Source: the human T2T-CHM13v2.0 reference genome, Homo sapiens. From it: 64,000 nt of DNA. The stretch is taken from NCBI RefSeq assembly GCF_009914755.1, contig NC_060933.1. The stretch is one strand, 5' to 3'. Positions 5,171 through 41,872 of the stretch are shown here, one piece after another. Position 1 is the first letter of the stretch; the number at the start of each line of letters is the position of its first letter. The position numbers were made by a program, and so were the translations under genes. Under the pieces are notes generated by a model. That model was not told where the DNA came from and made no database searches. It worked only from the letters and a program-made list of their open reading frames with translations.

Positions 5171-5641
5171 CAAAAATTTTATACGCCTTCCTAATCAAAT
5201 TTATCTATGGAACTCCTTTCCAGCTCACATATTCCTTAAGATGTCATCATTTTATAAAATAGCTTGCTCCTTTCTTTCCATGGACCCTCCAGTAATCCAT
5301 AGTTGTCTGAATGGTATCTCTGTATAGATGAGTATAGGTCTCTTTAAGAGGTCACCACGAAGTAGAATGACATTATATACATCTGCCTCATGAAAGTGGC
5401 AGCCAGGGAGGATTTATTTTAAAGTACTTACTCGTACTAAGAGATACAGTAGCTAGTTGATAACTCATTTGAGTTTACCTATTTTGAACATACTCTGTCT
5501 TCACTTTTATCAGAAATAACTGGCTTTTCTTGAGATCCAGTTTTCTATCTATGAATAAAGATTACATGTTTCCTAGCTAATAATTTTCTGTCGCAATTCT
5601 GGGTATCTTTCTATCTATCTATATAGTCACACATCTCTTAA

Positions 5642-7023: not shown

Positions 7024-7074
7024 TTGATGTAACATGAAGACAGTACTGTAATGCACCCTACCTCCTTCAGGTCT

Positions 7075-7290
7075 CTAGGCAGCACTTCCTCCCCAAAGCT
7101 TCACCCTCCTTGGTGAGAAGAGCACCGAGAGCCTCTCAGTCAGGCAGCTTGCTGTTTCCACAACTTTCCTTCCCTTGGTGAGATTCTCAGTGAGACCCTT
7201 TCAATAGAAACACATTACAAAATAAAAATCCGATCTTTACCACCACAGTAGAGTGGGGACTGAGTGTGAGCAGCCAATGGGATCTCCAAC
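7075..7290 (-). pseudogene. Relaxin-family remnant P2, intron-1 segment (homologous to RLN2 ~39140-39367)
   Basis: GGTGAGATTCTCAGTGAGAC 7177-7196 vs 39251-39270 (19/20); CAGCCAATGGGATCTC 7271-7286 vs 39350-39365 (15/16). Confidence 0.82.
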
Positions 7291-7449
7291 AGAGTGTTTG
7301 GACTGTGGTTATGACTGGTGGATGGGGCGTCTGCCCTCCAAAGATCCTGACAAGGTTGAGAAAATACAGGGGCCTCTAGAGTTGATCTTAAGTCTTAGTG
7401 AAGTATTGACTTGGGGTCTTTTTACTTTTTACAGTGGTGGGAAATCAGA

Positions 7450-7605
7450 TTCTATCAGTTTCTAGTAATTTCATACTTTCCTCTGACTCCTCTGGGCAAT
7501 TGGTTGATTGATAACAGTTGTGATTATTTAAATTGGAAATTGTATTTACCCTTAGAGATTGGAAAACACACACCCCTAGCAAACACACACACACCATAAA
7601 ATTAC
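7450..7605 (-). pseudogene. P2 upstream segment 1 (homologous to ~40330-40470)
   Basis: TTGATTG..GAGATTGGAAAACACACAC aligns to TTGATTG..GAGACTGGAGAACATACCACACAC. Confidence 0.65.
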
Positions 7606-7610
7606 AGGGG

Positions 7611-8782
7611 AGGATGATCATAATTCTGAAAGACAATCCCAAACACCATCATCCCAGTTGTTGAAATCCTGAGAGATCAAAATCTATAAAGCCAAAAATC
7701 TCAAAAATTCTAATCCTGTAAGATCAAAATCCCAAAAATATAATTCTAGGAAAAATAATATACAATTATTTAAAAGACACTTATTTACATTTTAAAGAGG
7801 GATATATCTGAAAATATAAAAATACAAGAGAACATTTTATAGGCCACACTGCACAATAAAATAGACAATAATAGCATACATACTTTTGCAAGCATGAACA
7901 CTCAGATATACCTATGGTAGTTGCATGAGTATGGGCAGATGAACTGTATTCATTTTTTTTAAAGGCCATAAAGTGAATTGTACAATGTATTTCACTATGA
8001 TTGGTGATTGTATGCACCCAGCTTTATAACTGCAATCCTCTGAAATGACATGATGTACACCTAAGTGTTTGGAGGAGAACAAGCAAAAACCATGAAGGGC
8101 CATCACATATTCAATCACTCAAAGAGCTGAAATCTTGAGAAATTTCATCTTTCACAAATGCAGATTTACAAAAAGGACATCTTTTCATTTATTGAGGAAG
8201 TTTCAGTGTTTTCACATACATGCAGAATGTTAACACACAAAGTCAGTGGTGTGATAATGGACTTTAGTGGAACCAAATTTCTGATACCCAAAGAGCAGAA
8301 GAAATGTCTATCCCAGCTCTCAGAGACCAATTTGCCTTCTGTGTTTGTTGTCTCCTAGCCCTGGGCTGATAGATTGTTGCCCACCAACACTGAGGCCAGA
8401 TCTTCTGTACATAGTCCATTGAGATTCACACACTAATCTCTTCTGGAAAAACCCTCACAGACACACCCAAAATAATACTTTGCCAGATTTCTGGATATTC
8501 CTTAATCTGGTCAAGTTGACACCTAAAATTAAGTCCACAAGACTTAATTGTCAACTTGGCAGCCACACACATCTCCTTAAACCATTCTTAAATTCCAAAT
8601 AAAAAGAATAACAAGGTAATAGTTTCATTTAATATAATGCAACTGTCCTGTGAGAGTGATTGTGGGCATTTCAGATGTTAGGGATTTTAGACATTAAGGA
8701 TTTCAACTTTAGAGATTTGTATTTTTAGGGATTCAGAATTATGGCATCCAGGATTATGTCTTTTAGGATTATGATCCAAACC
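7611..8782. mobile_element. Ricksha (MuDR-like) DNA transposon carrying an HERVL/MLT2 fragment
   Basis: Imperfect terminal inverted repeats GATCATAATTCTGAAAGAC.. / ..GTCTTTTAGGATTATGATCCAAACC; internal antisense MLT2 LTR start (GTCAAGTTGACACCTAAAATTAA) near 8510-8532. Confidence 0.8.
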
Positions 8783-9345
8783 AAAAAAACAGTAGAATTC
8801 CACAATCCAGAGAGAACACGTTGGCAACACATATTCTTGCAAAATAGTTAATACACATGATCACTTCCTGTATTCTCTGTGTGTTTTGTATGAGAAAGAG
8901 TAAATTTTTATCATTTTTAAATGTTAAACAAATCAACATAATTTTCTAGGCAATGGATGCTGTAGAAGACTATCAAATTATACATTGATCTTTTAAATGC
9001 AAAGAGGTTCAATGTTTTTACACCTGATGTGTTTGAGTTCAAAATCTACTTAGTTTAGCTCTGTTCCCACAGAAGAGTCTAATAATTTGATATAAGTTAG
9101 GATATTTCTGAAGCAAACTAGTAAATATATTAGTTCCCACTAAAAAGTATGATCTAATTTTCTGCAAATTGGAGGAAGGTTTTGTCATCATTCCTCAAAT
9201 GGTGAGCATCAGGTAACTGGTCAAATAATAACTGTTTAAAGCTAAGGGATAGTTGGAGTCATGGCTTTTAGATGTGTTTTCCCTATGGCAAGCAGTTTGG
9301 AAGAGGCTTCTCGGAACTGAGGTTTGGGAGGCACTTTTACAGTGT
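8783..9345 (-). pseudogene. P2 upstream segment 2 (homologous to ~40517-41100)
   Basis: Resumes right after Ricksha (AAAAAAACAGTAGAATTCCACAATCC vs AAAAAAAGCAGTGGAAATCCCACAATCC); 9292-9326 vs 41046-41080 match 30/35. Confidence 0.78.
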
Positions 9346-9429
9346 GAGTATCTAAGGAGAACAAGTCATTGCTTACTTAAAAATAAATTTCCCACTCTCC
9401 ATTTAATGTTGAATTTTCTTTTTAAAAAA

Positions 9430-10990
9430 TTATTTTGGGAGACTCAGCATCCAGGCTGGCATGTAAGAAGTCACTATTTCATTCTGACAATAAGGAAAAA
9501 GCTTGACAAACTGAAAAATTAACAACTCTTAGACTCATGACAGAAGTGGAAATTTAGGGCACATTTTGCCTCCAAAATTGGAGAGAGTGACAGGCAAATA
9601 CAGAGAATCACAAGTTACTAGAGAAGAAACCCATGGGCAGAAACCTCTATGGGAACCAGCACTGGGGTAGGAAACCTCAACCGTAATGAATGAATTGCTG
9701 TGGGGGGGCCCTGTGGATAATTCTAAGAATTAACGCTTCCATGGGGTCTGAGTTATAGGAGGCCTGGACAATTTTTTAACTTAAGGAGTTCTGCCAGGTT
9801 CCACAGTGAATATTTTGAAGAATATTCTAATGCTTCTGACAGAGGAGAGGAAATATAACCTTTTTGAAATATGCCAGAGTATTCTGGTCTTCTTAATAAG
9901 ACCTGACCTCAAGAGAAACTACTTTACCACAAGCTAAACTATTGGGTTGCTACTTTTTTCTAGAGCCTAACCAATGAAGAGGAAAAGATATATCCAATTC
10001 AAATGCACTCTAGCAATCCTGTCACACCTAAACAGAAAAGGTGGTCACCTGAGGAGAAGTTGTGAAGTTCTCAGTCTAGAGGGACAAACTTACTAACCAC
10101 TAAGAGCTAATAATAAGACTATGAATGCTTCCCCTTCCCCTACACCTACGCCATTACGATTCTTACTATTTGTCACAATTCCTTTTATCCATTACATTTT
10201 GTTTGATTATCACAAAGACTAAAGTAACATCAGCCCACACAGATGATAAAGGGTCAGCAAAAGAACCTTGGCAACTCAAAAAGCCACAGTGTCTTCTTAC
10301 CTCCAAATGACCACACTAGCTACCCAGCAGTTGTTCTTAACCAGGATAAAATGATTGAAATTATAGACATAGAATTAAAAGTCTGGATAGCAGTGAAGAT
10401 AATCAAGATTCAGGACAAAGTGAAACCCGAATCCAAGAAATACCAAGAATCCAATAAAATGAAACAAAAGCTGAAAAATAAAATAGCCATTTTAAGAAAC
10501 AACCAAACTAATCTAATAGAGCTGAAAAACTCACTATAAGAAGAACTTCATAATATAATTGGAAGTATTAACAGAAGAATTGACCAAGCTGAGGAAATAA
10601 ATCTCAGAGCTCAAAGACTGGTTCTTCAAATAGACTTAGTCAGAAAAAGAAAATTAAAAATTAAAAAGAATAAACAGAAGCTCTGAGAAATATGAGATTA
10701 CATAGAAAGACCAAATCTACAACTCTTTGGTTTCTCTGAAAGAGAGGGAAAGAGAGCAACCAAGATGGAAAACACATCTGAGGATATTGTCCATGAAAAT
10801 TTCCCCAACCTCACTAGAGAGAAAGACATTCAAATTCAAGAAATTCAGAGAATGCCTATAAAATACTATACAAAACAACTATCCCTAAGAAAGAGTCATC
10901 ACATTCTCCAAAGTCAATGCAAAAAAAAATATATTAAAGGCAGCTAAAGAGGAGGGACTGGTCACCTACAAATGGAACCTCATCAGGCTA
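9430..10990 (+). mobile_element. L1 fragments (old L1M 5' region, then ORF1 of an L1PB/L1PA-type element)
   Basis: ORF1-like peptides 10243-10539 and 10765-10947 (EDIVHENFPNL.RE.DIQIQEIQR). Confidence 0.75.
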
Positions 10991-11059
10991 AATATGCATT
11001 TTAACGGCACCCCACTGAGAGTAGCCCTGATCCAGATACTTTAAAGATTTTTTTCAGCT

Positions 11060-11446
11060 TGCTATAGTTTGGATGTTTGTCCTTCTAAACCTCATGTTGA
11101 AATGTGATCCCATATGTTGGAGGTAGGGCCTAATGAGAGGTGTTTGGGTCATGGGGACAGATCCCTCATAAGTAGATAAATGCCCTCCCTGAGGAGGGGT
11201 AGTGAGTGAGTTCTTGCTCTGTTAGGTCCCATGAGAGCTGGTTGTTAGAAAGAGCCTGACACTTCCCCTCTCTCTCTTGCTTCTTCTTGTCATTTGATCT
11301 CTGCACAGACCAGCTCTCTTTTACCTTCTGCCATGAGTGGAAGCAGCCTGAGGCCCTCACCAGAAGCCAAGCAGATGCCAGCACCATGCTTCTTGTATAG
11401 CCTGCAGAACCATGAGCCAAATAAACCTCTTTTCCTTATAAATTAC
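11060..11446 (+). mobile_element. MSTB-like MaLR LTR, 3'-truncated
   Basis: TGCTATAGTTTGGATGTTTGTCC...AATAAACCTCTTTTCCTTATAAATTAC. Confidence 0.8.
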
Positions 11447-12745
11447 AAGCAATGGAGAAAGGACTCCCTATTCAATAAATGGTGCTGAGGTAACTAGCTA
11501 GCCATATGCAGAAGGTTGAAACTGGACCCCTTCCTTTCACCATATACAAAAATCAACTCAAGATGGATTAAGTACTTAATGTACTTAAATGGAAAACCAA
11601 AAACTATAAAAACCGTAAAAGAAAAGCTAGGAAATGTTACTCTAGACATGAACCCTGGCAAAGATTTCTTGATGAAGACTCTTAAAGCAATTGCAACAAA
11701 AACAAAAATTGATAAATGGGACCTAATTAAACTAAAGAGCTTCTGCACAGCAAAAGAAACTATCCACAGAGTAAACAGACTACCTATAGAATGGGAGAAA
11801 ATACTTGCAAACTGTGCATCCAACAAAGGTCTAATATCCAGAATCTATAAGAAACTTAAACAAATTAACAAATGAAAGACAAAAAACCCATTCAAAAATA
11901 GACAAAGGACATGAACAGACACTTTTCAAAAGAAGACCTACATGTGGCCCACAAACAAATGAAAAAAATGCTCAACTTCACTAATCGTTAGAGAAATGCA
12001 AATCAAAACCACAATGAGTTACCATCTCATACCAATCAGAATTGCAATTACTAAAAAGTCAAAAAATAACAGATGCTGACAAGGTTGCAGAGAAAAGGGA
12101 ACTCTTATACACTGCTGTTGGGAATGCAAGTTAGTTCAGTCACTGTGAAAAGCAGTTTGGAGATTTTTCAAAGAACTTGAAACAGAACAGCCATTTGACC
12201 CAGCAATCTCATTACTGGGTATGTACCCAGAGGAGTATAAATGGTTCTACCATAAAGACACATGTACACTTATGTTCATTGCAGCACTCTCACAATAGCA
12301 AAGACATGGAATCAACCTAAATGCCCATCAATGGTGAGTTGGATAAAGAAAATGTGGTATGTATACACCATGAAGTACTATGTAACCATTAAAAAAAATG
12401 AGATCATGTACTTTTAGCAATACAGATGGACCTGAAGGCCATTATCCTAAGTGAATTAACACAGGAACAGAAAACCAAGCACTGCATGTTCTTACTTATA
12501 AGTGTGTGCGAATTATTGAATACACATGGATGGACACAAAGAAGGAAAGAAGAGACACCATGGTCTAATTTAGGATGAATAGTGGGTAAAGGATGAGGAT
12601 TGAAAAACTACATATCAGGTACTATGCTTATTACCTAGGTAACAAAATAATCTACAGCAAACCCCCATGACATACATTTTACCCATGTAACAAACCTGCA
12701 CATGCATCCCCTGAACCTAAAACTTGGAAAGAAAATAAATAAATA
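11447..12745 (+). mobile_element. L1 ORF2 C-terminus and 3'UTR (older L1PA/L1PB)
   Basis: Peptide 11516-11875 [18 protein letters not shown]...; 3' end CCCCTGAACCTAAAA + A-rich tail. Confidence 0.85.
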
Positions 12746-13517
12746 TGACACATATATAGAAAAGTAAATGGATTGAGATAGAGATACCATGCTAATACGA
12801 ATCAAAAGAAAACAGCAATAGCTATAATAATTTCAGACAGAGTAGACTTCAGAGCAAGAAATGTAACCAGTGGCCACTCAGGGATACTACATCATGATTA
12901 AGAGTTCAATTCTCCAAGAAGTCTTAACAATTCTGAACACATATGTGGCTAACAACAGAGCATCATATATGACAGGCAATGCTGATAGAACTGGAAAGAG
13001 AAATAGATTAACCCACTGTTGGAGACTTCAACATCCCTATATCAGAAATACACATATCCAATAGGCAGAAAATCATTAATAACTCAAAAACATGATAAAT
13101 CACCTGGATATAATAGACTTTTAAGACTATTTCATCTAAGCAGAGTACACATTCTTCTCAAGCTCACACAGAACATTCATCACGACAGAGCACATTCTGG
13201 GTCATAGAGTATATCTTCAATTTAGAAGAAGGGAAATCAGAGAATGTGTGCTCTCAGAACACATTGGAATTAAGATACCTGGAAAATCCTACAATACTTG
13301 GAGATTAAACAATATACTTCTAAGTAATACATGGGTCAAAGAAGAACTTTCGAGAGAAACAAAAAAAATTTTTGTTTATATTTAATGAATACATTAAAAT
13401 GAAACTAAATGAAAGCTAAATGAAAATGAAAATACCATTTATAAAAATTAGTGGGAGGCAGCAAACATATTCTTAGAGGGAAATTTATGGTATTGAATCC
13501 ATGCATTAGGAAAAAAG

Positions 13518-13951
13518 TGTTAAATTGAATTCAGTTTGGCCTAAACCTGCCTCCATACATAGTTTAAGTTTCACCTAAACGTCTCTCTGTACATAGTAAA
13601 GTGTAACCTAACTTGATGTGTAAACAGACTGTGATCTACTCTTGTAACAAGTAGCCAAGTCTCAGCAAATCATAGCAGCTGAGTTTTGGTCATTCACAGG
13701 CAGCCAACTTGTACAATTGTGTTCAGATAAGGCAAACACCTACTTGCAACCAATCCACCTGTTTCTGTACTTCACTTCTGTTTTCTGTACATCACTTCCT
13801 TTTTTTATGTCTATGAATGTTACTGACCATGTGGCAGCCCTGGAGTCACTCTGAATGTATTCTGGTTCTGGGTTCTGCCTTGTTTGATAATTGTTCTTTT
13901 CCCAAATAAATTCTGTTAAACTTAATTTGTATAAAGTTTTTTCTTTTAACA
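13518..13951 (+). mobile_element. MER57-like ERV1 solo LTR
   Basis: TGTTAAA...TTTAACA termini, CCAAT-like motifs and AATAAA; inserted in L1M. Confidence 0.7.
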
Positions 13952-14230
13952 GAAGAAAGATCTAAAACCAATCATCGAAGCATTCACTTTAGGAAACCAA
14001 AAAAGAAAAGAAAAGAGCAAATTAAATCCAAGGTAAGCAGAGGATAAGAAATAATAAAAATTAGACCAATTATTAATAATATTAAAAACAGTAATGAATA
14101 AAGAAAATCTACTAAATCAGAAACTGGTTCTTTGGTAAGATCAGTAAACTTGATAAGCCTCTAACCAGGCTAACGAAGAAAAAAAAAAGAAGACACAAAT
14201 TGCCATTTAGTAATATCAGAAATAAGAGAG

Positions 14231-14524
<294 letters not shown>

Positions 14525-14842
14525 TCAATTCAATACTTAATAATCTTCCAAAGCAGAAAGTACCAGTGCTAGAAGGGTATAATGATAATGTATGCCAAAC
14601 TATTTGGAAGAAATTATATCAATTTTCTATAATCTCTTGCAAAAACTAGAGGTAAAGTGAATGCTTTTTAACTCATTCTATGATGCCAGCATTATCCTAT
14701 ACCAAAACCAGACAAAGACGCTACAAGAAAAGAACACTGAAAACCAATATATCTCATAAACATATTTATGAGATAAATATGAGATAATTATCAACAAAAT
14801 ATTAGCGCATCGAATCCAATAATGTTTAAAAAGAATTATACA

Positions 14843-15124
<282 letters not shown>

Positions 15125-15185
15125 GAATTACACACCATGTCCAAGGTACACAGGTCCGATTCACCAAAAGAAAATCAACTCATGC

Positions 15186-17935
15186 CAACATGACTGAACT
15201 AGAAAGAAGTCAAATCCCTGAATAGACCAATAACAAGTTCTGAAATTGAGGGAGTAATTAATAGCCTACCAACCAAAAAAAGCCCAGGACCAGATGGATT
15301 CACAGCCGAATTCTACCAGAGGTACAAGGAGGAGCTGGTACCATTTCTTCTGAAACTATTCCAAACAATATAAAAAGAGGGATTCCTCAATAACTCATTT
15401 TATAAGGCCAGCATCATCCTGATACAAAATCCTGGTAGAGACACAACAAAAAAAGACAATTTCAGGCCAATATCCCTGATGAACATCGATGTGGAAATAC
15501 TCAATACAAATACTGGCAGCACATCAAAAAGCTTATCCCCAATTATCAAGTCGGCTTCATCCCTGAGATGTAAGGCTGGTTCAACATACACAAATCAATA
15601 AACGTAATCCAGCACATAAACAGAACCAATGACAAAAACCACATGATTATCTCAGTAGATGCAGAAAAGGCCTTCGACAAAATCCAACACCCCTTTATGC
15701 TAACAACACTCAATAAACTAGGTATAGATGGAACATGTAACTATTTATGACAAACCCACAGCCAATATCATACCGAATGGGCAAAAGCTGGAAGCATTCC
15801 CTTTGAAAACTGGCACAAGACAAGGATGCCCTCTCTCACCACTCTTATTCAAAATAGTATTGGAAGTTCTGGCCAGGGCAATCAGGCAAGAGAAAGAAAG
15901 AAATAGTATTCAAATAGAAAGAGAGGAAGACAAATGGTCTCTGTTGGCAGATGACATGTTTGTATATTTAGAAAACCCCATCATCTCAGCCCAAAATCTC
16001 CTTAAGCTGACAAGCAACTTCAGCAAAGTCTCAGGATACAAAATCAATGTGCAAAAATCACAAGCATTCCTATAAACCAATTATAGACAAACAGAGAGCC
16101 AAGTCATGAGTGAACTCCCATTCACAATTGCTACAAAGACAATAAAATACCTAGGAATAAAACTTACAAGGGATGTGAAGGACCTCTTCAAGGAGAACTA
16201 CAAACTACTGATCAAGGAAATAAGAGAGGACACAAACAAATGGAAAAACATTCCATGCTCATGGATATGAAGAATCCATATCATGAAAATGGCCATACTG
16301 CCCAAAGAAATTTATACATTCAATGCTATTCCTATCAAGCTACCATTGACTTTCTTCACAGAATTAGAAAAAACTACTTTAAATTTCATATGGAATCAAA
16401 AAAAGAGCCCGCATATCCAAGGCAATCCTAAGCAAAAAGAACAAAACTGGAGGCATCACGCTACCTGTCTTCAAGCTATACTACAAGGCTACAGTAACCA
16501 AAACAGCATGGTACTGGTACCAAAACAGATATATAGACCAATGGAACAGATTAGAGGCCTCAGAAATAAACCACACATCTAGAACCATCTGATTTTCAAC
16601 AAACCTGACAAAAACAAGCAATGGGGAAAGAATTCCCTATTTAATAAACAGTGTTGGGAAAACTGGCTAGGCATATGCAGAAAACTGAAACTGGACCCCT
16701 TCCTTACATCTTACACAAAAACTAACTCAAGATGGATTAAAGGCTTAAACGTAAGACCTAAAGCCATAAAAACCCTAGAAGGAAACCTAGGCAATACCAT
16801 TCAGGACATAGGCATGGGCAAGGACTTCATGACTAAAACACCAAAAGCAATGGCAACGAAAGCCAAAATTGACAAATCGGATCTCATTAAACTAAAGAGC
16901 TTCTGCACAGCAAATGAAACTATCATCAGAGTGAACAGGCAACCTACAGAATGGGAGAAAATTTTTGCAATCTACCCATCTGACAAAGGGCTAATATCCA
17001 GAATCTACAAAGTACTTAAATTTACCAGAAAAAAAAACAACCCCATCAAAAAGTGGGCAAAGGATATGTACAGGCAATTCTTAAAAGAAGACATTTCTGT
17101 GGCCGATAAACATATGAAAAAAAGCTCATCGTCACTGGTCATTAGAGAAATGCAAATCAAAACCACAATGAGATACCATCTCATGCCAGTTAGAATGGCA
17201 ATCATTAAAAAGTCAGGAAACAACAGGTGCTAGAGAGGATGTAGAGAAATAGGAATGCTTTTACACTGTTGGTGGGAGTGTAAATTAGTTCAACCATTGT
17301 GGAAGCAGAGTGGAGATTCCTCAAGGATCTAGAACTAGAAATACCATTTGACCCAGCAATCCCATTACTGGGCATATACCCAAAGGATTATAAATCATTC
17401 TACTATAAAGACACATGCACACATATGTTTATTGTAGCAGTATTTACAATAGCAAGGACTTGGAACCAACCCAGATGTCCATCAATGATCGACTGGATAA
17501 AGAAAACGTGGCACATATACACCATGGAATACTATGCAGCCATAAAAAACGATGAGTTCGTGTCCTTCGCAGGGACATGGATGAAGCTGGGAACCATCAT
17601 CCTCAGCAAACTCATACAGGAAAAGAAAACCAAACACCACATGTTCTCACTCATAAATGGGGGTTGAACAATGAGAATACGTGGACACAGGGAGGGGAAC
17701 ATCACATACTGGAGCCTGTTGGGGGTTGGGGGCAAGGGGAGGGATAGCATTAGGAGAAATATCTAATGCATGCAGGGCTTGAAACCTAGATGACGGGTTG
17801 ATGGGTGCAGCAAACCACCATGGCACATGTATACCTATGTAACAAATCTGCATGTTCTGCACATGTAACCCAGAACTTAAAGTATACTAAAAGAATAAAT
17901 AAATCAATAAATACATAAAAATAAATGGTGAAAAA
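15186..17935 (+). mobile_element. 5'-truncated L1PA7-like element (ORF2 RT to 3'UTR)
   Basis: ORF2 peptides 15728-17667; TSD AAAAGAAAATCAACT(C/T)ATGC 15166-15185 / 17936-17955. Confidence 0.92.
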
Positions 17936-17955
17936 AAAAGAAAATCAACTTATGC

Positions 17956-20900
17956 AATACATCATACTAACAGGCTAAAGAGAAAACATCGCATGATTAT
18001 ATCAACAAATTCTGAGGAAACATTTGATAAATCCAACACTCGTGCATAATAAAAGCTTTCAGCCAACTAGGAATAGAGGAGAACATCCTCACTTGATAAA
18101 GAATATCTACAGAAAACCCATAGTTCATATTGTACTAAATGGTTGGATACTAGAAAATTTCCTGCTAAGGTGAAGAAGAAGAAAAAACGTTTCCTTTTGT
18201 CCTTCATTACACACTGTTCGTGGGAATGTAAATTAGTACAGCCATTATGGAAAACAGTATAGAGGTTCCTCAAAAATTTTAAAATATAACACTATATAAT
18301 CTAGCAAGTCCACCACTGGGCATATATCCAAAAGAAATTCAATCAGACTATCAAAGAAGTATCTGCATTCCCGTGTTTTCTCTAGCAGTATTCATAATAA
18401 CCAATATATGAGATCAACTTAAGTGTCCATCAACTAGAGATAATGCACTTTATATGTGCAATGGAATACTATCAGCCATAAAAAAGGAGAAATTCCCGTC
18501 ATTGTGACAATATGGGTAAACCTCAATGACTGTATATTAAGAGAAATAAGTCAGACACAGAAAAATATTGCATGATCTCACTCATAAGTGGCATCTTGAA
18601 GAGTATTTCTACATCTCATAGAAGTAGAAAGCAGAATGGGCTCACTAAAAATAAGAGACCTAATTCTAGGACTATAAAACCCATATCTCCTCCCCCCACA
18701 CACCTACCTTGCAATCACATCAATTGCACCCTAAATAATAACAGTGGCTTACAAGCAAAAGAACTGTAAGCCTCAGACCTTATTTAAGAAGTCTTTGGGA
18801 ATATTCAAAGATAACAGGGGAGACAAAAGCAAAGACATCAGAGAATTTTAGCCTCTGAGACTTACAGCTACAACATAAGTTAAATATACCAAAGACCTAT
18901 TTACATCAGGTCCTTTACCCATCATGTTTGGCTTTTAACAAACATTACAAAGTATACTAAAAGGCAAAAAATACAATTTGAAAATACAAAAAGCATCAGA
19001 CCAGACCCAGATATGGCAGAAATTTTGGAAATATCAGACTGGGAATTTAAAATAACTGTGATTACTGTACTAAGGTCTCTAATGGAGTCGACTACATGCA
19101 TGCACAGAAGCATAATGTAAGTAAAGTGATAGATGCTCTAAGAAAGATTTTTTAAATGACAGAAATTTAAAACACTAACGGAAATTTAAAAATGCTTTTG
19201 ATACACTTATCATAGATTGAATGCAGTCAAGGAAAGTACCAGGGCCTTAAGGATATGTCATAGAAACCTCTCAAATGATAAGGCAAAAATAAAAAAGAAA
19301 CTTTAAAGAATGGAATACAATATACAAGAACTGTAGAACGAGCACAAAAGGTATAACATATGAATTGTAGGAATGCCACAAAGAGAAGGAAAGGAGAAAA
19401 GAACTGAGAAACATTTAAGAAATAATGACTAATAATTTGCCCAAATAAATGTCAGACACCAAACCACAAATCCAGGAAGTGCAGAGAATGTCAAAGAGGA
19501 TAAATACTAATCTACAGCTAGATACAACATATTCAAACTGTAGAAAATCAAAGACAGAAAATTTTGAAAGAAACCAAAAGAAGAAGAAAAAAAAACATGT
19601 ACAACACACCCACAGCTAATATAATATTGACTGTGGAAAAACTGAAGGCCTTTGCTCTAAGATCTGGAACATGACAAGGATGCCCACTTTCACCCCTGTT
19701 ATTTAACACAGTACTGGAAGTCCCAGCTAGGGCAATCAGACAAGAGGAAAAACTAAAGGCCTGGGAAAGTGTGAAGAGGCTCCGCTGCTGTGGGGTGGGG
19801 TGTCACCAGTTGGTGCAGACCCCAAGTGGTCTGATCCTTGGACTCCCAGTGGGTCCAAATAAGTGCACGGTGGCTCTCCTGCTCGAGAGGGTCAGCTCTC
19901 AGGCTCTGGGGAGCATGTGCATCAGCTCCTTCTGTATTGGGGTTAGCCTGCCCCTTGTGCTGGTTAACTTGTTACCTGGGATGCCGGGTGATGATGTGTG
20001 GGCTCGGGTGCATGGGTTCATGGCTGCACTGCTGGGCCCAGCTGGAGTCATGGTACTGCAGCCTTTTGCGTGGATGTGATGGGATAATGGCAAAGCACTA
20101 GGGATGTACAGATGTATGGGGTCATTGGCCCCTGGGCAGAATGTGCTCTGACAGTGGTTTCATTCTCAAAATGGCACATGCTGCAGCAGTCTGAGTCCTG
20201 GAAATTCTGGGAGCATCAGTGTGATTTCCTCCCTGGAGTAATGCAGTCACGTGGATTCCAGGCAGCTCTCTACCCTGAACTCAAGGCCTGTGAGGATTAT
20301 AGGGCTCTCCTGCAGTTAGGATTACAGGTGTCTGTGGTAGGAATATGAACTTCCCGGGATCTTCCACTTATCTTTTCCCTGCAATAAAGAGTCCTTCTTG
20401 GCTCTGAGTAGATCCCAACCAGATGCTTTGCCTACCTCCCTATGCTGCCATCCCAAGTTTCCATGCCTTAAAGAGTCTTGCTGAATTCTGTTATTCTCCC
20501 CTAGAACCTCTATTTGATGTATGGTTATATACTTGTTATTTTTGCCCTTCTTTGTGAAGAAGGTGAATGCTGGGCACCTCTAGCCAGCCATCTTGATGAC
20601 ATCTCCTCTCTAATAGGGAGTTATTGATCAAAGGGTGCAAAGGTTCAGATGACAAGAGGAATAGATTTCAAGAGCTGTTGCACAGCAGGGGGTCTATAGT
20701 CAATAATAATGTATAATATATTTCAAAATAGCTAAGAGAGTACATTTCAAGTGTCTCATAAAAAATGATAGGTCAGCAAGGTGATGAATGTGTTAATTAG
20801 CTTGATTTAATAATTCCACATTGTATACATATATCAAAACATCACATTATACCCCATGAATGTATATAATTATGATCTGTCAATTGAAAATAATACAATA

Positions 20901-21276
20901 AAAGAAAAAGAAAAGAGCCCAATGATATACTACATCACGTCCATTAGGATGGCTCTAATGCAAAAAGGAAAATAACAAATGTCAGAGATGTAGAAAAATT
21001 GAAACATTCATGCACTATTGGTGGAAATGTAAAGTGGTGTAGCTTCTGTGGAAGACAGTAGGGTAGAGAAGACAGTAGGGTGGTTCCTCAAAAAGTTAAA
21101 AGTAGAAAGACCACATGATCCAGCAATTCCATTCCTAGGTATGTACTCCAAATAATTAAAAATAGGCAGTTGCACAGATAGTTATATACTAATGTTCACA
21201 GCAGCATTATTCACAAAAACTAAAAAGATAAAAATAAACTAAATGTCCATCAATGGACAAATGAATAAACAAAATG

Positions 21277-21315
<39 letters not shown>

Positions 21316-22013
21316 TGTATATATATCTATATAATACATGTATTTATATATATAATGAAACATTATTCCTCCATGAAAAGGAATGATCTTCTGACACATG
21401 CTGGAACATGGCTGAATCTGAAAAATGGTAAGTGAAATAAGCCAAACACAAAAAGACAAATATTCTATGATTCTATCTACATGAAGTAGCTAGAGTAGTC
21501 AATTTCACAAACACAGAAAGTAGAATAGTGGTTACCAGGGGCTTGAAGTGACAGAATGGGGATGTCATGTTTAATGAATACAGAGTTTCAGTTTGAGATG
21601 ATGAAAAAGTTCTGGAGATAGATAGTGGTGATGGTGTACAACAATGTGAACATACTTAATGCCACTAAACTTACACTAAAATATAATTAAAATGGCACAT
21701 TTTTGGTATGGGTATTTCATCATAATAAAAAAATGCAAAATTATAAAACTCTTAGAAGATGACATAGGAAAAAACTCTTAAGTGACATTGGGCTTGTCAA
21801 TGACTCTTTAGATACAATACTAAACACAGTCTGAGAATACAAAAATTGATAAATTGGACTACATTAAAATTATAACTTTCTACTCTTCAAAAGATATGCT
21901 TCAAGAGAATAAAATGACAAGCCATAGACTGGGGCAAAATATTTGCAAAATATATCTGATAAAGGACAATTACTCAAAATACACAGAGAACTCTTAAAAC
22001 TTAACAATAGGAA
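17956..22013. mobile_element. Mosaic of old L1M fragments (includes an antisense 5'UTR ~19770-20610 and (TG)n ~21279-21320)
   Basis: Several L1 ORF1, ORF2 and 3'UTR motifs; boundaries approximate. Confidence 0.6.
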
Positions 22014-22028
22014 AAAAATCCCAATTTT

Positions 22029-25000
22029 TTTCCGACTTTTATTTTAAGTTCAGGGGTACATGTGCAGAATGTGCAGATTTGTTACATATGTAAACATGTG
22101 CCATGGTGATTTGCTACACAGATCATCCCATCACCTAGGTATTAAGTCCAGCATCCATTAGCTATTCTTTCCGATGCTCTCCCTCCTCCCGTCCCCCATT
22201 TTCTGACAGGCCCCAGTGTGTGTTGCTCCCTGCAACCCCCATGTGTCCATGTGTTCTCATCATTTAGCTTCTGCTTATAAGTGAGAACATGTGGTATTTG
22301 GTTTTCTGTTCCTTTATTAGTTTGCTGAGGATAATGGCTTCCAACTCCATCCCTGTCCCTGCAAAGGACATAATCTCATTCGTTTTTATGGCTGTATAGT
22401 ATTCTATGGTGTATATGTACCACATTTTCTTTATCTAGTCTATCATTGATGGTCATTTAAGTTGACTCCATCTCTTTGTTATTGTGAATAGTGCTGCAAT
22501 GAATGTACACGCGCATGTATCTTTATACTAGAATGATTTATATTCCTTTGGGTATTCATCCAGTAATGGATTGCTGGGTCAAATGGTATTTCTGCCTCTA
22601 GGTCTTTGAAGAACTGCCACACTGTCTTCCACAATGGTTGAACTAATTTACACTCCCACCACAGTGTAAAAGTGTTCCTTTTTCTCTGCAACCTCACCAG
22701 CATCTGTTGTTTTTTGACTTTTTAATAATAGCCATTCTGGCTGGTGTGAGATGGTATCTCATTGTGGTTTTGATTTGCATTTTCTCTAATGATTAGCAAT
22801 GTTGAGTATTTTTTTTTTCATGTTTGCTGGCCGCATGTACATCTTCTTTTGAGAAGTGTCTGTCCATGTCCTTTGCCCACTTTTTACTGGGGTTGTTTGT
22901 TTGTTTCTTGTAAATTTGTTTAAATTCCTCACAAATGCTGAATATTAGTTCTCTGTCAGATGGATAGATTGCAAACATTTTCTTCCATTCTGTAGGTTTT
23001 CTGTTCATGCTGATGATAGCTTCTTTTGGTGTACAGAAGTTCCTCAGTTTAATTAGATCCCATTGGTTGCTTTTGCTTTTGGCAATCATTAAATCTTTGC
23101 CCGTGCCTATGTCCTAAATGGTATTGCCTAGATTTTCTTCTAGGATTTTTATAGTTTTGGATTTTACATTTAAGTCTTTCATCCATCTTGAGTTGATTTT
23201 TGTACATGGTGTAAAGAAAGGTTGCAGTTTCAATTTTCTGCATATGGCTAGCCAGTTCTTATAGCACCATTTATTGAATAGGGAGTCCTTTCCCCATTGC
23301 TTGTATTTGTCAGTTTTGTCAAAGATCAGATGGTTGTAGGTGTGTGGTCTTACTTCTGGGTTCTCTATTCTTTTCCATTGGCCTATGTGTCTGTTTTTGT
23401 AGCAGTACCATGCTGTTTTGGTTACTGTAGTCCTGTAGTGCAGTTTGAAGTCAGGTAGCATGATACCTGCAACTTTGTTTTTTGTTTCTTTGTTTGTTTG
23501 TTTTTTAGGATTTTCTTGGCTATTTGGGCTCTTTTTTGGTTCCACGTGAACTTTAAAATACCTTTTTCTAATTCTGTGAAGAATGTCAGTGGTAGTTTAA
23601 TGGGAATTGCATTGAATCTGTAAATTGCTTTGGGCAGTATGGCCATTTTCACAATATTAATTCTTCCTATCCATGAGCATGGAATATTTTTCCATGTTTA
23701 TGTCATCTGTGATTTCTTTGAGCAGTGGTTTATAGTTCTCCTTGAAAAGGTCTTTCACTTTGCTTCTTAGCTATATTCCTAGGTATTTTATTCCTTCTGT
23801 AGCAATCCATTCATTGAATGAATAAGACTTCACTCATTCATGAGATTTCATTCATGATTTGGCTCTAAGCTTGCCTGTTGGTGTACAGGAATGCTAGCAA
23901 TGTTTGCACATTGATTTTGTATTATGAAACTTTGCTGAAGTTGCTTATCAGTTTAAAAAGCTTTTGGGCTGAGACACTGAGGTTTTCTAGATATAGGATC
24001 GTAACATCTACAAACAAAGATAGTTTGACTTCCTCTATTCCTATTTGAATATCCTTTATTTCTTTCTCTTGCCTGATTGCCCTGGTTAGGACCTCCAATA
24101 CTACGTTGAATAGGAGTGGTGAGTGAGGGCATCCTTGTCTTGTAAGGTTTTCAAGGGGAATCCTTCCAGCTTTTGCCTATTCAGTATGATATTGGCTGTG
24201 GCTTTGTCATAAATGGCTGTTATTATTCTGAAGTATGTTCCTTCGATACCTAGTTTATTGAGAGTTTTTAACATGAAGGGATGTTGAATTTTATTGAAGG
24301 TCTTTTCTGCATGTATTGAGGTAATCAGTTGGTTTTTGTCTTTAGTTCTGTTTATGCGACGAACTACGTTTATTGATTTGTGTATGTTGAACCAACTTTG
24401 AATCCTTGGGTTGAAGCCTACTTGATCATGGTAGATAAGCTTTTTAATGTGTTGCTGGATTCCGTTTACCAGTATTTTACTGAGGATTTTTGCAATGATG
24501 CTCATCAAGGATAGTGTCCTGAAGTTTGCTTTTTTTATTGTATCTCTGCCAGGTTTTGGTATCAGGATGATTCGGACCTCATAGAATGAGTTAGGGAGGA
24601 GTCCCTTCTCTTCAATTTTTTGGAATAGTTTCAGTAGAAATGGTACCAGCTTTTCTTTGTACCTCTGGTACACTTCAACTGTGAATCCATCTGGTCCTGG
24701 GCTTTTTTTTGTTGGTAGGCTATTTATTACTGCCTCAATTTCAGAACTGTTTGTCTATTTATGGATTCAATTTCTTCCTGGTTCAGTCTTGGAAGGGCGT
24801 ATGGTGTCAAGAAATTTATCCATTTCTTCTAGACTTTCTAGTTTATGTCCACAGAGGTGTTTGTAGTAATCTCTGATGGTTGTTTGTATTTCGGTGGGGT
24901 CAGTGGTGATATCCCCCTTATCATTTCTGATTGTGTTTATTTGAATTCTCTCCCTTTTCTTCTTTATTTGTCTTGCTAGTGGTCTATCTATTTTATTAAT

Positions 25001-25196
25001 TTTTTCAAGAAACCAGCTTCTGGATTTGTTGTTTTGAAGGGTTTTTCTTATAGAGACAAATCCCCCTCAGTTAAGCTCTGATCTTGCTTATTTCTTGTGT
25101 TCTGCTACCTTTGGGGTTTGTTTGCTCTTGGTTCTCTAGTTTTCTTAGTTGTGATGTTCGATTGTTGACTTGAGATCTTTTTAGCTTTTTGATGTG
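22029..25196 (-). mobile_element. 5'-truncated L1PA (approx. PA8-PA10) in antisense
   Basis: ORF2 peptides 22479-24673; TSD AAAAATCCCAATTTT 22014-22028 / 25197-25211. Confidence 0.92.
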
Positions 25197-25211
25197 AAAA
25201 ATCCCAATTTT

Positions 25212-26480
25212 AAAATGGGCAAAAAATTGAAGAAATACTTTACCAAAGAAGATATGCTGATGGCTAATAAGCAAGTGAAAAAAAATTTCAACATCTTATA
25301 TCATTTGCAAATTGTAAGTTAAAACAACAATGAGATATCTTTACAGAACTATTAGAATGGCTAAAATCCAAAATGCTGACAACACCAAATGCTGATGAGG
25401 ACATGGAGCAACAGGAATTCTCATTCATTGTTGGTAGAAATGCAAAATGATACAGCTATTTTAGAAGACAGTTTAGCAGGATTTTTTCAACTAAACATAT
25501 TCTTACCATGTGGTTTAGCAATCACATTTCTTGGTATCTACCCAAGTGAGCTGAAAATTTATTTCAGCATAAAAACCTGCACATGAGTGAGTATGGCAGC
25601 TTTATTCATAATTTCCCAGACCTGGAAGCAACCAAAATGACTTTAAGTAGGTGAATGAATAAATAGACTGTGGTGCATTTAGACAAGGAATACTATTCAG
25701 TGCTAAAAGGAAAGAGTGAACAAGCCATGAAAATACACTGAGGAACTTTAAAAGCATATTACTAAGTGAAAGAAGCCAATCTGAAAAGGCTGTATCACGT
25801 ATAATTACACCTGTATGAGGTTCTGGAAAGGCAAAACCATGGAGACAGGAAAAAGATCAGTGATTGTCAGGGATTTGGGGAGAGAGAGGCATGAACAGGG
25901 GGAGCATAAGGAATTTTTAGGGCAGTAAAATCTATTTTGAATAATTCTATAAGGAGGATACATATCATTAGACATTTGTCAAAACCCATAGAATGTAAAA
26001 TACAAAGAGTAAACCGTAATGTAAATTATGGGCTTTGATTAATAATAATGTCAAGGTTCCTTCATCAGCTGTAACAAAGGTACCACATGTAACAAACTTA
26101 CAGATGATGTGGACTGCGGTAAGGGGATATGGTTGGGGGAGTATGCAGTAACATTCTGTATTTTCTACTTAAATTTCCTGTGAACTTAAAACTACTTTCA
26201 AAAGTCAATTAATTTTTAAAAATCCATAGAGTGTACTCTAAACAGTAAAATCCAAAGAGTGAACTCTAATGTAAACTATGGGCTTTAATTAATAATAATA
26301 ATATATCAATATTGGTTCAGTTGCTGCACAAGTACCACACTAATGCAAGGTGTTATTTATAGTTAAAACTGTTTTTGTGGTGAGGTGAGGAGCCATATGG
26401 GAAGTGACTCTACTTTCTACTATATTTTTCTGTAAACCTAAAATTACTTTTAAAAATGATTTTATTAATTTAAAAACAAA
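25212..26480 (+). mobile_element. L1MC-like 3' end (host of the antisense L1PA)
   Basis: Continues the 21740-22013 sequence; 3'UTR motif AAAACCCATAGAATGTA. Confidence 0.7.
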
Positions 26481-26499
26481 TATAAGTATTTTCTGTCAA

Positions 26500-27660
26500 A
26501 AGAAACAAACACCTTTTTAAAGAGAAAAAAAATATGTCTACACATACACCTGGTAAGTGCCGAGGCTACAATTCTACCCATGTCCACCGGATTCCAAAAA
26601 GGTCTTTCTTTTTTCCACAATATCCCATGGATTTACCTGCAGTTGAAGTCAATCTAATGGTGAAGGGTAATAGACAAACATGAAAGTCTTTCAGACAGTA
26701 ATTACGGATACAAGAACAGAGAGCGTGAGTGCATCTATAAGTTAACTATGCCAACCTCTTTTTCTAGAAACTTCTCCCTAGACTATCTAAACTCTTGAGG
26801 CTATAAGTGCTAGATACGATTTCTCAATGTTTCTTGCAGGTAGCAGTGTCCATATGACACAGCTCTTGCCAACATACCATGAGCACAAGTGAGGTTTCTG
26901 GAAAAGCCTTTGCTTTTCTCTTCTAGGCATTAAGCCCTCTTGTTTCCCCCTTTCTTTCCTGCCTGAAATGCAGACCGAGAAAGGAAGAGGAAGCAGCCAT
27001 CTTGGGACCCACCATGTGGTAGGGAGCATAAGGAGGAAGGCCTCTATGCTAGGCACAGGTGACTGGAAAGTTGGGAGGAGCCTGCTGGTAGCATTCAGAG
27101 GCTAAACAGGGGCAGATACTTACTTACTCCATGGGCCTCTTAGAAGCTACTTTTGTAGGGTATTCTGTTATTTACAGAGAACACAGTCTTAACTGATACA
27201 TAGTATCAATAGAGTAAATGTTTTATTTGAGACATAAGTTAAACTTACAAGTTTTTCATGACAGTTTTAGGTGGACTTTAGTAGCACTTGAAATATACAT
27301 TTTAAAGGTTGAAGTAATTATTTACATTTTTGTAGTAGACAGTTAACCATAAATTATCTTTGAACCACTCAAAAAGCGGACATACCATCAGAAGCAGTAA
27401 ATATGGCTTCTAATTCAGTGACTCTGCCTCCATGGAATTTGTGAAGGAGCAGATGTGAAACATGGGCTCAGACAGGGTCTGGGTAACAGCCTTCTGTGTC
27501 TGGAGGTGCCTCTCTGTCCTGTAAGAGCTGTAAGTTTCCTGGGCATTGTCCTCATTCTTCTAGGTTGGAATCTCCATATCAGACAGCACTCTTCCTTGCT
27601 TCATCTGAGGTGGATTATGATCTGTGAGGTTTTGCAGTCATTTATGAAGCTTTGCAAGGT
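26500..27660 (-). pseudogene. P2 upstream segment 3 (homologous to ~41715-42860, including a shared old MLT1-like LTR)
   Basis: About 1.1 kb colinear similarity; TGTAAGTTTCCTGGGCATTG identical at 27529-27548 and 42754-42773; ACCCATGTC(C/T)AC(C/T)GGATTCCAA in both. Confidence 0.85.
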
Positions 27661-27862
27661 ACCCTTGGTGAGGAATTAATAAATCCTAGAGACTTGGTTA
27701 TTATTAGTTATGTATGGGAATTTGAAAAGCAGGAATTACTATCTTCATTTCTTAAAATTGTTTACAGACATTTGATGGAGGAGATAAATGCAGTTGTCAT
27801 TGAACTGCATTTCTTCTATAAATGCTGGCTAAAATGCATGTGTATATAAATAGACAGAACCA

Positions 27863-39287: not shown

Positions 39288-39460
39288 CTGGCAAAGGAAA
39301 AGCCCAAACTTTAGGGACCAGCCACGGCTGAGTAGGGGCTGAGCGGTGGCAGCCAATGAGATCTCGAGTCGGACGTGCAGGCCGCCGTTCCAATTGGGCG
39401 GCCGCCCCAGAGTAACCAATGGGAAGCGCGGGAAGGCCGGGAGGGGGCGGGAGCTCTCAC

Positions 39461-40449: not shown

Positions 40450-40450
<1 letters not shown>

Positions 40451-41178: not shown

Positions 41179-41872
<694 letters not shown>

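What the first reader, a model, noticed from the sequence alone, without database searches (positions are those of the whole stretch)
7075..27660. Exon-less ghost relaxin paralog (P2) in tandem with RLN2, stretched over 20 kb by transposons
Four colinear same-orientation blocks match RLN2: 7075-7290 to intron 39140-39367, 7450-7605 to 40330-40470, 8783-9345 to 40517-41100, and 26500-27660 to 41715-42860. The gaps are filled by Ricksha and the L1 cluster. With the L1 at 27863-34263 removed, the last block ends about 1.1 kb from the RLN2 stop codon, which indicates a head-to-tail tandem duplication. The shared MLT1-like LTR predates the duplication; the old L1M and Ricksha insertions unique to P2 postdate it. 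Identity is roughly 70% by eye, far older than the RLN1/RLN2 split. RLN2 therefore has a diverged copy of its own upstream regulatory region on its 3' side.
Basis: partly seen in the sequence, partly recalled or inferred. Interest (0 to 1): 0.8.

Follow-up and report, generated by a model that had tools for sequence, protein, structure and literature searches.

The report
Exon-less relic copy beside relaxin-2
Just downstream of the human relaxin-2 gene lies a decayed, transposon-bloated copy of that gene's first-intron start and upstream DNA that has lost its coding exons; it is one of several unannotated fossils of ancient duplications in the relaxin/INSL gene cluster and shows no sign of present function.

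Summary
They share strand and order and are 63-75% identical (1,237 of 1,678 ungapped positions, 73.7%). A reversed-sequence control gave only a dinucleotide repeat. Whole-genome searches show the largest block is confined to the chr9 relaxin cluster, while the stretches between blocks are dispersed repeats.

P2 keeps the intron-1 start and upstream blocks U1-U4. It lacks about 1 kb holding exon 1 and the proximal promoter, and has no exon 2. It abuts RLN2's 3' flank once a TSD-flanked L1 is removed.

P2 is not alone. The INSL6-RLN1 interval holds at least four more unannotated relics, including an INSL4-like two-exon pseudogene. P2 is about as far from INSL4 as from RLN2 (K2P 0.45-0.49, against 0.06 for RLN1-RLN2). 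It shares one unique block only with RLN2.

Best reading: a neutrally decaying relic unit of the ancient relaxin-locus tandem array, probably as old as the INSL4/RLN split. I found no evidence of constraint or regulatory function. It is a new member of a known kind, of moderate interest.

The parts
7112..7286 (-). P2 block Y. It is the homolog of the 5' end of RLN2 intron 1 (RLN2 39190-39365). In RLN2 this stretch overlaps the alternative exons 39187-39356.
   Evidence: 72% identical to RLN2 and RLN1. It also matches Copy B (74%), INSL4 and Copy A.
7287..7329 (-). Deletion scar. These 43 bases stand where RLN2 has about 0.98 kb (39366-40346): the first 95 bases of the intron, exon 1 and about 540 bases of promoter.
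   Evidence: Block coordinates. No exon-1 relic was found by tblastn.
7330..7594 (-). P2 block U1 (upstream block, RLN2 about 40351-40473). Bases 7330-7474 are shared with INSL4 upstream only.
   Evidence: E 4e-4 to RLN2; 7330-7538 <-> INSL4 upstream, E 7e-11.
7615..8788 (.). Dispersed repeat with terminal inverted repeats, like a DNA transposon. It is inserted exactly between U1 and U2.
   Evidence: 2,252 first-look candidates across many chromosomes at 67-83% identity, with termini matching in both orientations. It is absent at RLN2 40473/40521. The family name was not testable.
8783..9361 (-). P2 block U2 (RLN2 40521-41080).
   Evidence: It is also colinear with Copy A (64.7% over 487 bases) and with INSL4 upstream (69.4% over 255). 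The whole-genome search found only self.
9362..26497 (.). 17.1 kb of insertions: several L1 fragments, two Alu-like elements and other repeats.
   Evidence: L1 ORF relics at 10687-13217, 15743-17664, 19597-19791, 22267-24250 (minus) and 25539-25685. 83.5% of the stretch has another copy within the 184-kb region, and 67% has three or more. Bases 26400-26492 are a dispersed repeat.
26498..27175 (-). P2 block U3 (RLN2 41710-42298). It is shared only with RLN2, apart from its first 100 bases, which RLN1 also has.
   Evidence: Copy A and INSL4 carry a different filling at this place. No dispersed copies were found.
27221..27648 (-). P2 block U4 (RLN2 42444-42862). It is also homologous to the INSL6 upstream tail and, for 52-75 bases, to U4 of Copy A and of INSL4.
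27646..27862 (-). 3' flank of the RLN2 unit. It is the junction between the P2 tail and the next unit.
   Evidence: 27646-27779 <-> Copy A 3' flank (71%). 27761-27862 <-> RLN1 3' flank (88%).
27863..34265 (+). Broken full-length L1 (longest open frame 245 aa), inserted into the RLN2 3' flank after the RLN1/RLN2 duplication.
   Evidence: 14-bp target-site duplication and an empty site in the RLN1 flank. ORF fragments.
39190..42862 (-). The RLN2 stretch that P2 copies: intron-1 start, exon 1, promoter and upstream blocks U1-U4. It contains an Alu-like insert at 41152-41490 and a (GATA)n repeat at about 42306-42432.
3229..3865 (+). Copy C, a separate inverted relic of promoter, exon 1 and intron start (RLN2 39909-39264). 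It converges on P2.
   Evidence: 62% identical to RLN2 (E 2e-44). 89% identical to Copy B over 224 bases. Weak signal-peptide relic at 3468-3518 (E 0.25).
5641..7024 (.). LTR-retroelement-like dispersed repeat (internal part plus a roughly 425-bp LTR at 6602-7024). It ends 88 bases from P2's left end.
   Evidence: 10,874 candidates; 8,718 candidates. Calling it MaLR THE1/MST-like rests on my recall of the LTR's terminal sequence, not on a call.

Best explanation
P2 (window 7112-27637, same sense as RLN2) is the decayed 5' half of one repeat unit of the ancient tandem array that forms the relaxin family locus on 9p24 (INSL6-INSL4-RLN2-RLN1). A unit runs 3' flank, exon 2, intron, exon 1, promoter, then upstream blocks U1-U4.

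P2 sits head-to-tail in front of the RLN2 unit. It keeps the intron-1 start and U1-U4.

Its losses and gains are as follows.
- An internal deletion of about 1 kb removed exon 1 and the proximal promoter.
- Exon 2 and the rest of the intron are missing beyond a junction that now faces an inverted relic (Copy C).
- Insertions swelled it from about 2.2 kb to 20.5 kb: one TIR-bearing transposon and about 17 kb of L1 and Alu.

Shown here: the homology, its colinearity with four other units, its uniqueness to the cluster, the insertions and the junction.

Inferred: that P2 once held a whole gene; that it dates to about the INSL4/RLN split, at or before the placental ancestor; and that it now decays neutrally without function.
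For: - Seven of seven non-repeat HSPs between P2 and RLN2 share strand and order. The reversed control gives none.
- The same P2 blocks are colinear with Copy A (plus strand: -69723, -67782, -67519, -65686) and with the INSL4 unit (minus strand: -33025, -36577, -36876, -42785, -42964, -45104).
- Whole-genome probes of U3-U4 from P2 and from RLN2 hit only the chr9 cluster, apart from a (GATA)n repeat. The same tool found thousands of copies for the neighbouring repeats.
- The homology spans both sides of the missing exon 1, with Y in the intron and U1 upstream. So exon 1 lay inside the copied segment.
- The P2 tail is followed at 27646 by the 3' flank that also precedes Copy A's exon 2. The order 'upstream tail, then 3' flank' also occurs between INSL6 and Copy A.
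- A tree on 806 shared columns gives ((RLN2,RLN1),P2,(INSL4,CopyA)) with support 99. K2P is 0.485 for P2-RLN2, 0.454 for P2-INSL4 and 0.064 for RLN1-RLN2.
- U3 is shared by P2 and RLN2 only. Copy A and INSL4 share another filling there.
- Neutral decay: 10 of 1,482 40-column windows reach 35 or more matches, against about 15 expected. CpG observed/expected is 0-0.31 in the P2 blocks.
- Arroyo et al. [quoted passage not shown] They place the origin of INSL4 in the ancestor of placental mammals.
Against: - No relic of exon 2, or of the intron beyond RLN2-equivalent 39190, was found for P2. That it was ever a whole gene is therefore not shown.
- The tree is unrooted. P2 may be sister to RLN or simply lie outside the INSL4/Copy A pair. 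The Y block alone leaves RLN2, P2 and Copies B/C unresolved.
- For the small blocks Y, U1 and U2, the whole-genome search did not even recover the RLN2 counterpart. It therefore cannot exclude very old repeats there; only colinearity speaks for those blocks.
- The P2 tail lacks about 2.7 kb that lies between U4 and the 3' flank at the INSL6-to-Copy A junction.
- No other mammal could be examined, so the age rests on distances alone.
Confidence: 0.8

Rival explanations
1. P2 was never a gene. Only the 5' segment of the RLN unit (intron start to U4) was copied and landed 3' of RLN2. Exon 1 was then deleted.
For: P2 homology starts abruptly at RLN2-equivalent 39190. Nothing resembling the rest of the intron, exon 2 or a 3' flank lies to its left, even at E up to 0.5.
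Against: The left side is occupied by later repeats (5641-7024 and 4272-4800) and by an inverted relic, so loss by rearrangement explains the gap equally well. The array elsewhere is built of whole units with the same tail-to-3'-flank order.
Confidence: 0.12
2. The blocks are independent copies of old interspersed repeats that happen to lie near each other.
For: For blocks Y, U1 and U2 the whole-genome search was too insensitive to see matches at 63-72% identity. Very old repeat families are therefore not formally excluded there.
Against: All seven blocks share order and strand with RLN2, and also with Copy A and the INSL4 unit. U3-U4 (1.1 kb) has no dispersed copy from either probe. The tool does find dispersed copies at similar identity for the adjacent transposon (67-83%).
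Confidence: 0.02
3. The retained upstream module of P2, above all U3-U4 at 26.5-27.6 kb, still acts as distal regulatory DNA for RLN2. It would be a shadow enhancer or boundary on the gene's 3' side. This can hold together with the relic origin.
For: U3b is the best-kept block, at 80.3% over 370 ungapped positions. It lies only about 1.15 kb, plus an L1, from the end of RLN2.
Against: There is no excess of highly conserved windows, and the blocks are CpG-depleted. None of the four RefSeq functional elements in the hub's table overlaps a block. Identity matches that of other relics that are plainly dead.
Confidence: 0.07

Closest known systems
RLN1/RLN2 duplication of catarrhine primates (Arroyo, Hoffmann & Opazo 2014, PMC3971578)
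   Same: It is a same-locus, same-orientation duplication of a relaxin unit that includes intron and flanks. Here the duplicated stretch is 27761-27862 plus 34266-41809 <-> 69432-76942.
   Different: RLN1/RLN2 are 92.3% identical over 6.8 kb and both are intact genes. P2 is about 70-74% identical over 1.7 kb, has no coding exon, and predates that event by a factor of about 4-7 in distance.
INSL4 and the INSL4 pseudogenes of other placental mammals (Arroyo, Hoffmann, Good & Opazo 2012, J Mol Evol). I saw this only as a citation and a one-sentence summary in PMC3971578; the paper itself is not held.
   Same: These are old duplicates in the same locus whose age exceeds their present distribution, and relics are used to infer the ancestral repertoire. 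P2's distance to RLN2 equals INSL4's distance to RLN2 (K2P 0.485 against 0.488).
   Different: Those pseudogenes are recognised by exon similarity. P2 has no exon relic and is recognisable only through intron and upstream DNA. P2 lies outside the INSL4/Copy A pair (support 99; U3 against U3').
Unprocessed (duplicated) pseudogenes and truncated relics in tandem gene clusters generally, such as the globin clusters (general knowledge, not from a call)
   Same: It arose by local duplication, decays neutrally, and is interrupted by deletions and transposon insertions.
   Different: Both coding exons are completely absent while about 2.2 kb of non-coding scaffold survives. Standard exon-based pseudogene annotation therefore cannot see it.

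Membership tests
Relic unit (unprocessed pseudogene fragment) of the relaxin family locus tandem array | Colinear, same-order homology to non-coding parts of a parent unit, beyond chance | tested here: met
   Seven of seven non-repeat HSPs are colinear with RLN2. The reversed control gave only a dinucleotide repeat. The blocks are also colinear with Copy A and the INSL4 unit.
Relic unit (unprocessed pseudogene fragment) of the relaxin family locus tandem array | The sequence is confined to the cluster and is not a dispersed repeat | tested here: met
   U3-U4: only chr9 cluster hits from two probes. For Y, U1 and U2 only self was found, and sensitivity was too low to be decisive.
Relic unit (unprocessed pseudogene fragment) of the relaxin family locus tandem array | Head-to-tail position next to a unit of the same orientation | tested here: met
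   The P2 tail ends at 27637. The RLN2-unit 3' flank begins at 27646. The L1 at 27863-34265 is a later insertion with a target-site duplication.
Relic unit (unprocessed pseudogene fragment) of the relaxin family locus tandem array | Recognisable remains of the coding exons | tested here: not met
   tblastn with RLN2 protein (E<=10) and with INSL4 exon peptides (E<=1) found nothing in 7112-27637 except one spurious Alu-region hit. blastn with the RLN2 exons found nothing. It is therefore filed as an exon-less relic, not as a classical pseudogene.
   (blocks) against (neighbouring repeats, with 62 to 10,874 candidates).
Duplicated (shadow) enhancer | Sequence constraint above the neutral level | tested here: not met
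   10 of 1,482 windows reach 35 of 40 matches, against about 15 expected by the binomial. The blocks are CpG-depleted. This is a within-genome comparison only.
Duplicated (shadow) enhancer | Chromatin marks or reporter activity in RLN2-expressing tissue | not testable with these tools
   No epigenomic data are held. The hub's RefSeq functional elements (4176-4711, 28345-28887, 39683-39732, 62339-62839) do not overlap any P2 block.

The most novel reading that the evidence does not exclude
The human INSL6-RLN1 interval is a readable fossil record of a relaxin/INSL array that was much larger than today's. It held at least nine units: INSL6, Copy A, Copy D, Copy B, INSL4, Copy C, P2, RLN2 and RLN1. 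P2 is the lost sister gene of relaxin. Its surviving upstream module (U3-U4, about 1.15 kb plus an L1 downstream of RLN2) has been kept as distal regulatory DNA for RLN2.
Probability: 0.07. Interest if true: 0.6.

Novelty: new member of a known kind. Interest (0 to 1): 0.35.

Why it matters
The relaxin locus is a textbook case of gene birth, loss and 'differential retention' in placental mammals. What the ancestral repertoire was is still argued from exon-bearing genes and pseudogenes.

P2 and the other relics found here show that non-coding scaffold outlives the exons. It can be used to count and order ancient units: at least five unannotated relics lie in 184 kb. That gives a concrete, testable map for comparison with other mammals.

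For RLN2 biology, the practical message is a caution. The DNA 3' of RLN2 that resembles its upstream region is most likely dead.

Tried and rejected
1. Default-sensitivity blastn found only the three strongest blocks. The weaker ones needed word 7 and +1/-1 scoring.

2. I looked for P2's missing 3' half.
- Low-stringency comparison of 3866-5640 with the introns and 3' flanks of RLN2, RLN1, INSL4, Copy A and Copy B gave only hits of 17-59 bases at E 0.001-0.5.
- I considered that Copy D (-64042..-62300) is P2's other half, separated by one inversion. I rejected this because D is 73-83% identical to Copy A and INSL4 but only 63-68% to RLN2, whereas P2 lies outside the INSL4/Copy A pair.

3. I considered that Copy C is P2's own exon 1, moved by an inversion. 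This is not supported. The two overlap by about 100 homologous bases at 67% identity, and C is 89% identical to Copy B. A later conversion from B could hide a C-P2 kinship, so the question stays open.

4. Rooting with the INSL6 tail failed. No stretch is shared by P2, RLN2, INSL6 and the INSL4/Copy A pair together.

5. Y-block trees with six copies were unresolved, with supports of 34-46.

6. Literature.
- Six searches found no description of an exon-less relaxin relic or of Copies A-D in human.
- Arroyo et al. 2012 (J Mol Evol) is not held. I did not look up Arroyo et al. 2012 (Mol Phylogenet Evol, which reported dot-plots), Hoffmann & Opazo 2011 or Park et al. 2008 by id, and no search listed them, so I did not see them. 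They may show such traces.
- The supplement of PMC3971578 is a PDF and was not seen.

8. Repeat family names (Ricksha, L1M, MLT1) could not be checked, because no repeat library was available.


Full report
**Material.** The window is T2T-CHM13 chr9:5,270,001-5,334,000, and the whole genome is held. I fetched 90 kb to the left and 30 kb to the right. I joined them with the window in genomic order into a 184-kb working sequence. Coordinates below are window coordinates; negative values lie to the left of the window.

**1. The observation.** Sensitive blastn of 6000-29000 against 34000-47000 returned 21 HSPs at E<=0.01.
  - 7118-7286 <-> 39190-39365 (72%)
  - 7475-7594 <-> 40351-40473 (67%)
  - 8783-9073 <-> 40521-40806 (63%)
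  - 9189-9326 <-> 40939-41080 (70%)
  - 26498-26691 <-> 41710-41906 (68%)
  - 26790-27175 <-> 41924-42298 (75%)
  - 27221-27637 <-> 42444-42862 (70%)
- The other 14 HSPs are Alu-like (4), L1 3' ends (6) and a dinucleotide repeat (4).
- Against the reversed target, only 9 HSPs remained, all at the dinucleotide repeat.
- Global alignment of the seven pairs gives 1,237 of 1,678 ungapped positions identical (73.7%; 70.5% with gap columns; K2P 0.33).

**2. Unique DNA or repeats?** Whole-genome searches separate the two classes cleanly.
- The large block probed from P2 (26797-27591) had 4 first-look candidates, all in the chr9 relaxin cluster.
- Probed from RLN2 (41700-42870), it hit P2, the first 110 bases at RLN1 and, otherwise, only a (GATA)n microsatellite at about 42306-42432.
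- By contrast, several neighbouring stretches are dispersed repeats:
  - 26400-26492 (62 candidates)
  - 6602-7024 (10,874 candidates)
  - 5641-6601 (8,718 candidates)
  - about 7615-8788 (2,252 candidates at 67-83% identity, with termini matching in both orientations, so probably a DNA transposon)
- For the small blocks 7075-7605 and 8783-9361, only the query itself was found. The RLN2 counterparts were missed too, so that test is uninformative for very old repeats. There the argument rests on colinearity.
- The interior 9362-26497 holds L1 ORF relics at five places. 83.5% of it has another copy within the 184 kb.
- The names Ricksha, L1M and MLT1 could not be tested.

**3. Anatomy of P2.**
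- In RLN2 terms, P2 holds Y (the start of intron 1, 39190-39365) and the upstream blocks U1-U4 (to 42862).
- Between Y and U1, P2 has 43 bases (7287-7329) where RLN2 has about 0.98 kb (39366-40346). That kilobase comprises the first 95 intron bases, exon 1 and about 540 bases of promoter.
- Homology thus lies on both sides of the missing exon, so exon 1 was inside the copied segment and was deleted later. This is an inference.
- The TIR-bearing repeat sits exactly between U1 and U2. The 17-kb L1/Alu cluster lies between U2 and U3.
- No coding relic exists in P2. tblastn with RLN2 protein (E<=10) and with INSL4 exon peptides (E<=1) found none.
- To the left of 7112 come 88 bases, the LTR-type element (5641-7024), an old dispersed repeat (4272-4800), and 4614-5640 with a single chrX match at 83%. 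No intron or exon-2 homology was found there.

**4. The junction with RLN2.**
- The P2 tail ends at 27637.
- From 27646, the sequence is the 3' flank of the RLN2 unit. 27646-27779 matches the 3' flank of Copy A (71%). 27761-27862 and 34266-34808 match the RLN1 3' flank (88% and 87%).
- The L1 at 27863-34265 has a 14-bp target-site duplication, and RLN1 shows the empty site. It therefore entered after the RLN1/RLN2 duplication.
- The order 'upstream tail, then 3' flank, then exon 2' also occurs between INSL6 and Copy A. That fits tandem duplication of whole units.

**5. Context: an array of relics.** Using the RLN2 unit and then the relics themselves as queries, I found further unannotated copies.
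- **Copy A** (about -72558..-65612, sense minus) has 3' flank, exon 2, intron, exon 1 and U1-U4.
  - Its exon-2 relic aligns with all 75 residues of INSL4 exon 2 (53% identity, E 1.7e-19).
  - It carries two in-frame stops, and the A-chain cysteines are kept.
- **Copy D** (-64042..-62300, sense plus) is 73-83% identical to Copy A and INSL4. It lacks the exon-2 coding part.
- **Copy B** (about -48902..-47898, sense plus) has a short intron. Its exon 1 is cut by an LTR-type repeat.
- **Copy C** (window 3229-3865, sense plus) is promoter, exon 1 and intron start. It is 62% identical to RLN2 (E 2e-44) and 89% identical to Copy B over 224 bases only.
- The INSL6 upstream tail (-75539..-73674) matches RLN2 42663-43386.
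- A further cluster-only block T (44451-45640) recurs three times elsewhere in the 184 kb.
- The unit orientations read INSL6(-) A(-) | D(+) B(+) INSL4(+) C(+) | P2(-) RLN2(-) RLN1(-).
- The hub's RefSeq table lists none of A-D or P2.

**6. Kinship and age.**
- On 806 columns shared by RLN2, P2, INSL4 and Copy A, the tree is ((RLN2,RLN1),P2,(INSL4,CopyA)) with support 99. The K2P distances are:
  - P2-RLN2 0.485
  - P2-INSL4 0.454
  - RLN2-INSL4 0.488
  - INSL4-CopyA 0.413
  - RLN1-RLN2 0.064
- Between U2 and U4, P2 and RLN2 share U3 (68-75%). Copy A and INSL4 share a different filling (70-78%), which is partly a multi-copy repeat.
- So INSL4 and Copy A form a pair, and P2 lies on the RLN side of that split. 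The tree is unrooted, and the Y block alone cannot resolve RLN2, P2 and B/C.
- Arroyo et al. 2014 date RLN1/RLN2 to 44.2-29.6 Ma. They place the origin of INSL4 in the ancestor of placental mammals (PMC3971578; introduction and results read).
- P2's distance is 4-7 times the RLN1-RLN2 distance and equals that of INSL4. I infer an origin at about the time of the INSL4/RLN split, roughly 100-200 Myr ago. This is a crude estimate with no outgroup.
- The TIR-bearing repeat unique to P2, whose copies differ by 17-33% from this one, gives a loose lower bound.

**7. Function.** I found no sign of it.
- 10 of 1,482 40-column windows reach 35 or more matches, against about 15 expected by chance.
- CpG observed/expected is 0-0.31 in the P2 blocks.
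- None of the RefSeq functional elements in the hub's table overlaps a block.
- Chromatin data and cross-species constraint could not be examined.

**8. Verdict.**
- One widening is needed: P2 is one relic among several of an ancient array, and not a private ghost of RLN2.
- One caution applies: 'regulatory' is unproven.
- In kind it is known, since decayed duplicates in a tandem cluster are common. As an exon-less member recognisable only through its non-coding scaffold, it appears to be undescribed in what I could search (six searches). The subscription papers that made dot-plots of this locus were not available.

Noticed in passing
window -71588..-69094 (chr9:5,198,413-5,200,906), between INSL6 and INSL4: Copy A is an unannotated INSL4-like two-exon pseudogene, sense minus. 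Its exon-2 relic aligns with all 75 aa of INSL4 exon 2 (53% identity, E 1.7e-19). It has two in-frame stops and keeps the A-chain cysteines. A signal-peptide relic lies at -69322..-69384. Its upstream blocks are 74-78% identical to those of INSL4.
   Followed up: partly
window -64042..-62300 (Copy D) and -48902..-47898 (Copy B): These are two more relic units on the plus sense. D is 73-83% identical to Copy A and INSL4 but has no counterpart of INSL4's exon-2 coding stretch. B has a roughly 440-bp intron, a decayed exon-2 relic (E 3e-4), and an LTR-type repeat cutting exon 1.
   Followed up: partly
window 3229-3865: Copy C is an inverted relic of RLN-type promoter, exon 1 and intron start. It is 89% identical to Copy B, but only over 224 bases. 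C and P2 point at each other, and both break off in intron 1 at nearly the same homologous place (RLN2-equivalent 39264 and 39190). This could be an old inverted duplication or an inversion breakpoint; it remains unexplained.
   Followed up: partly
window 38111-39581 and the matching stretch of RLN1, about 35.2 kb to the right (outside the window): RLN2 and RLN1 are perfectly identical over a 1,471-base run covering the 5' end of intron 1 and the 3' part of exon 1. Elsewhere in the duplicated unit they are mostly 82-96% identical per 250-column window, with one window at 74%. This looks like a recent gene-conversion tract in this human assembly.
   Followed up: partly
window 28345-28887, 62339-62839 and 4176-4711: Two RefSeq 'enhancer' features lie at equivalent places near the 5' ends of two L1 elements (27873-28996 <-> 62015-62893). 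The third overlaps an old dispersed repeat at 4272-4800 (245 candidates).
   Followed up: no
window 44451-45640: Block T, upstream of RLN2, is confined to the cluster (2 candidates genome-wide). It recurs downstream of INSL4 (-30567..-29625), at -54673..-53764 and at -60069..-58953, all inverted. It seems to be the far-upstream end of the ancient repeat unit.
   Followed up: partly
whole INSL6-RLN1 interval: The unit orientations read (-)(-) | (+)(+)(+)(+) | (-)(-)(-), with switch points near -64045 and between 3865 and 7112. A single inversion that makes D and P2 two halves of one unit was tested and does not fit.
   Followed up: partly
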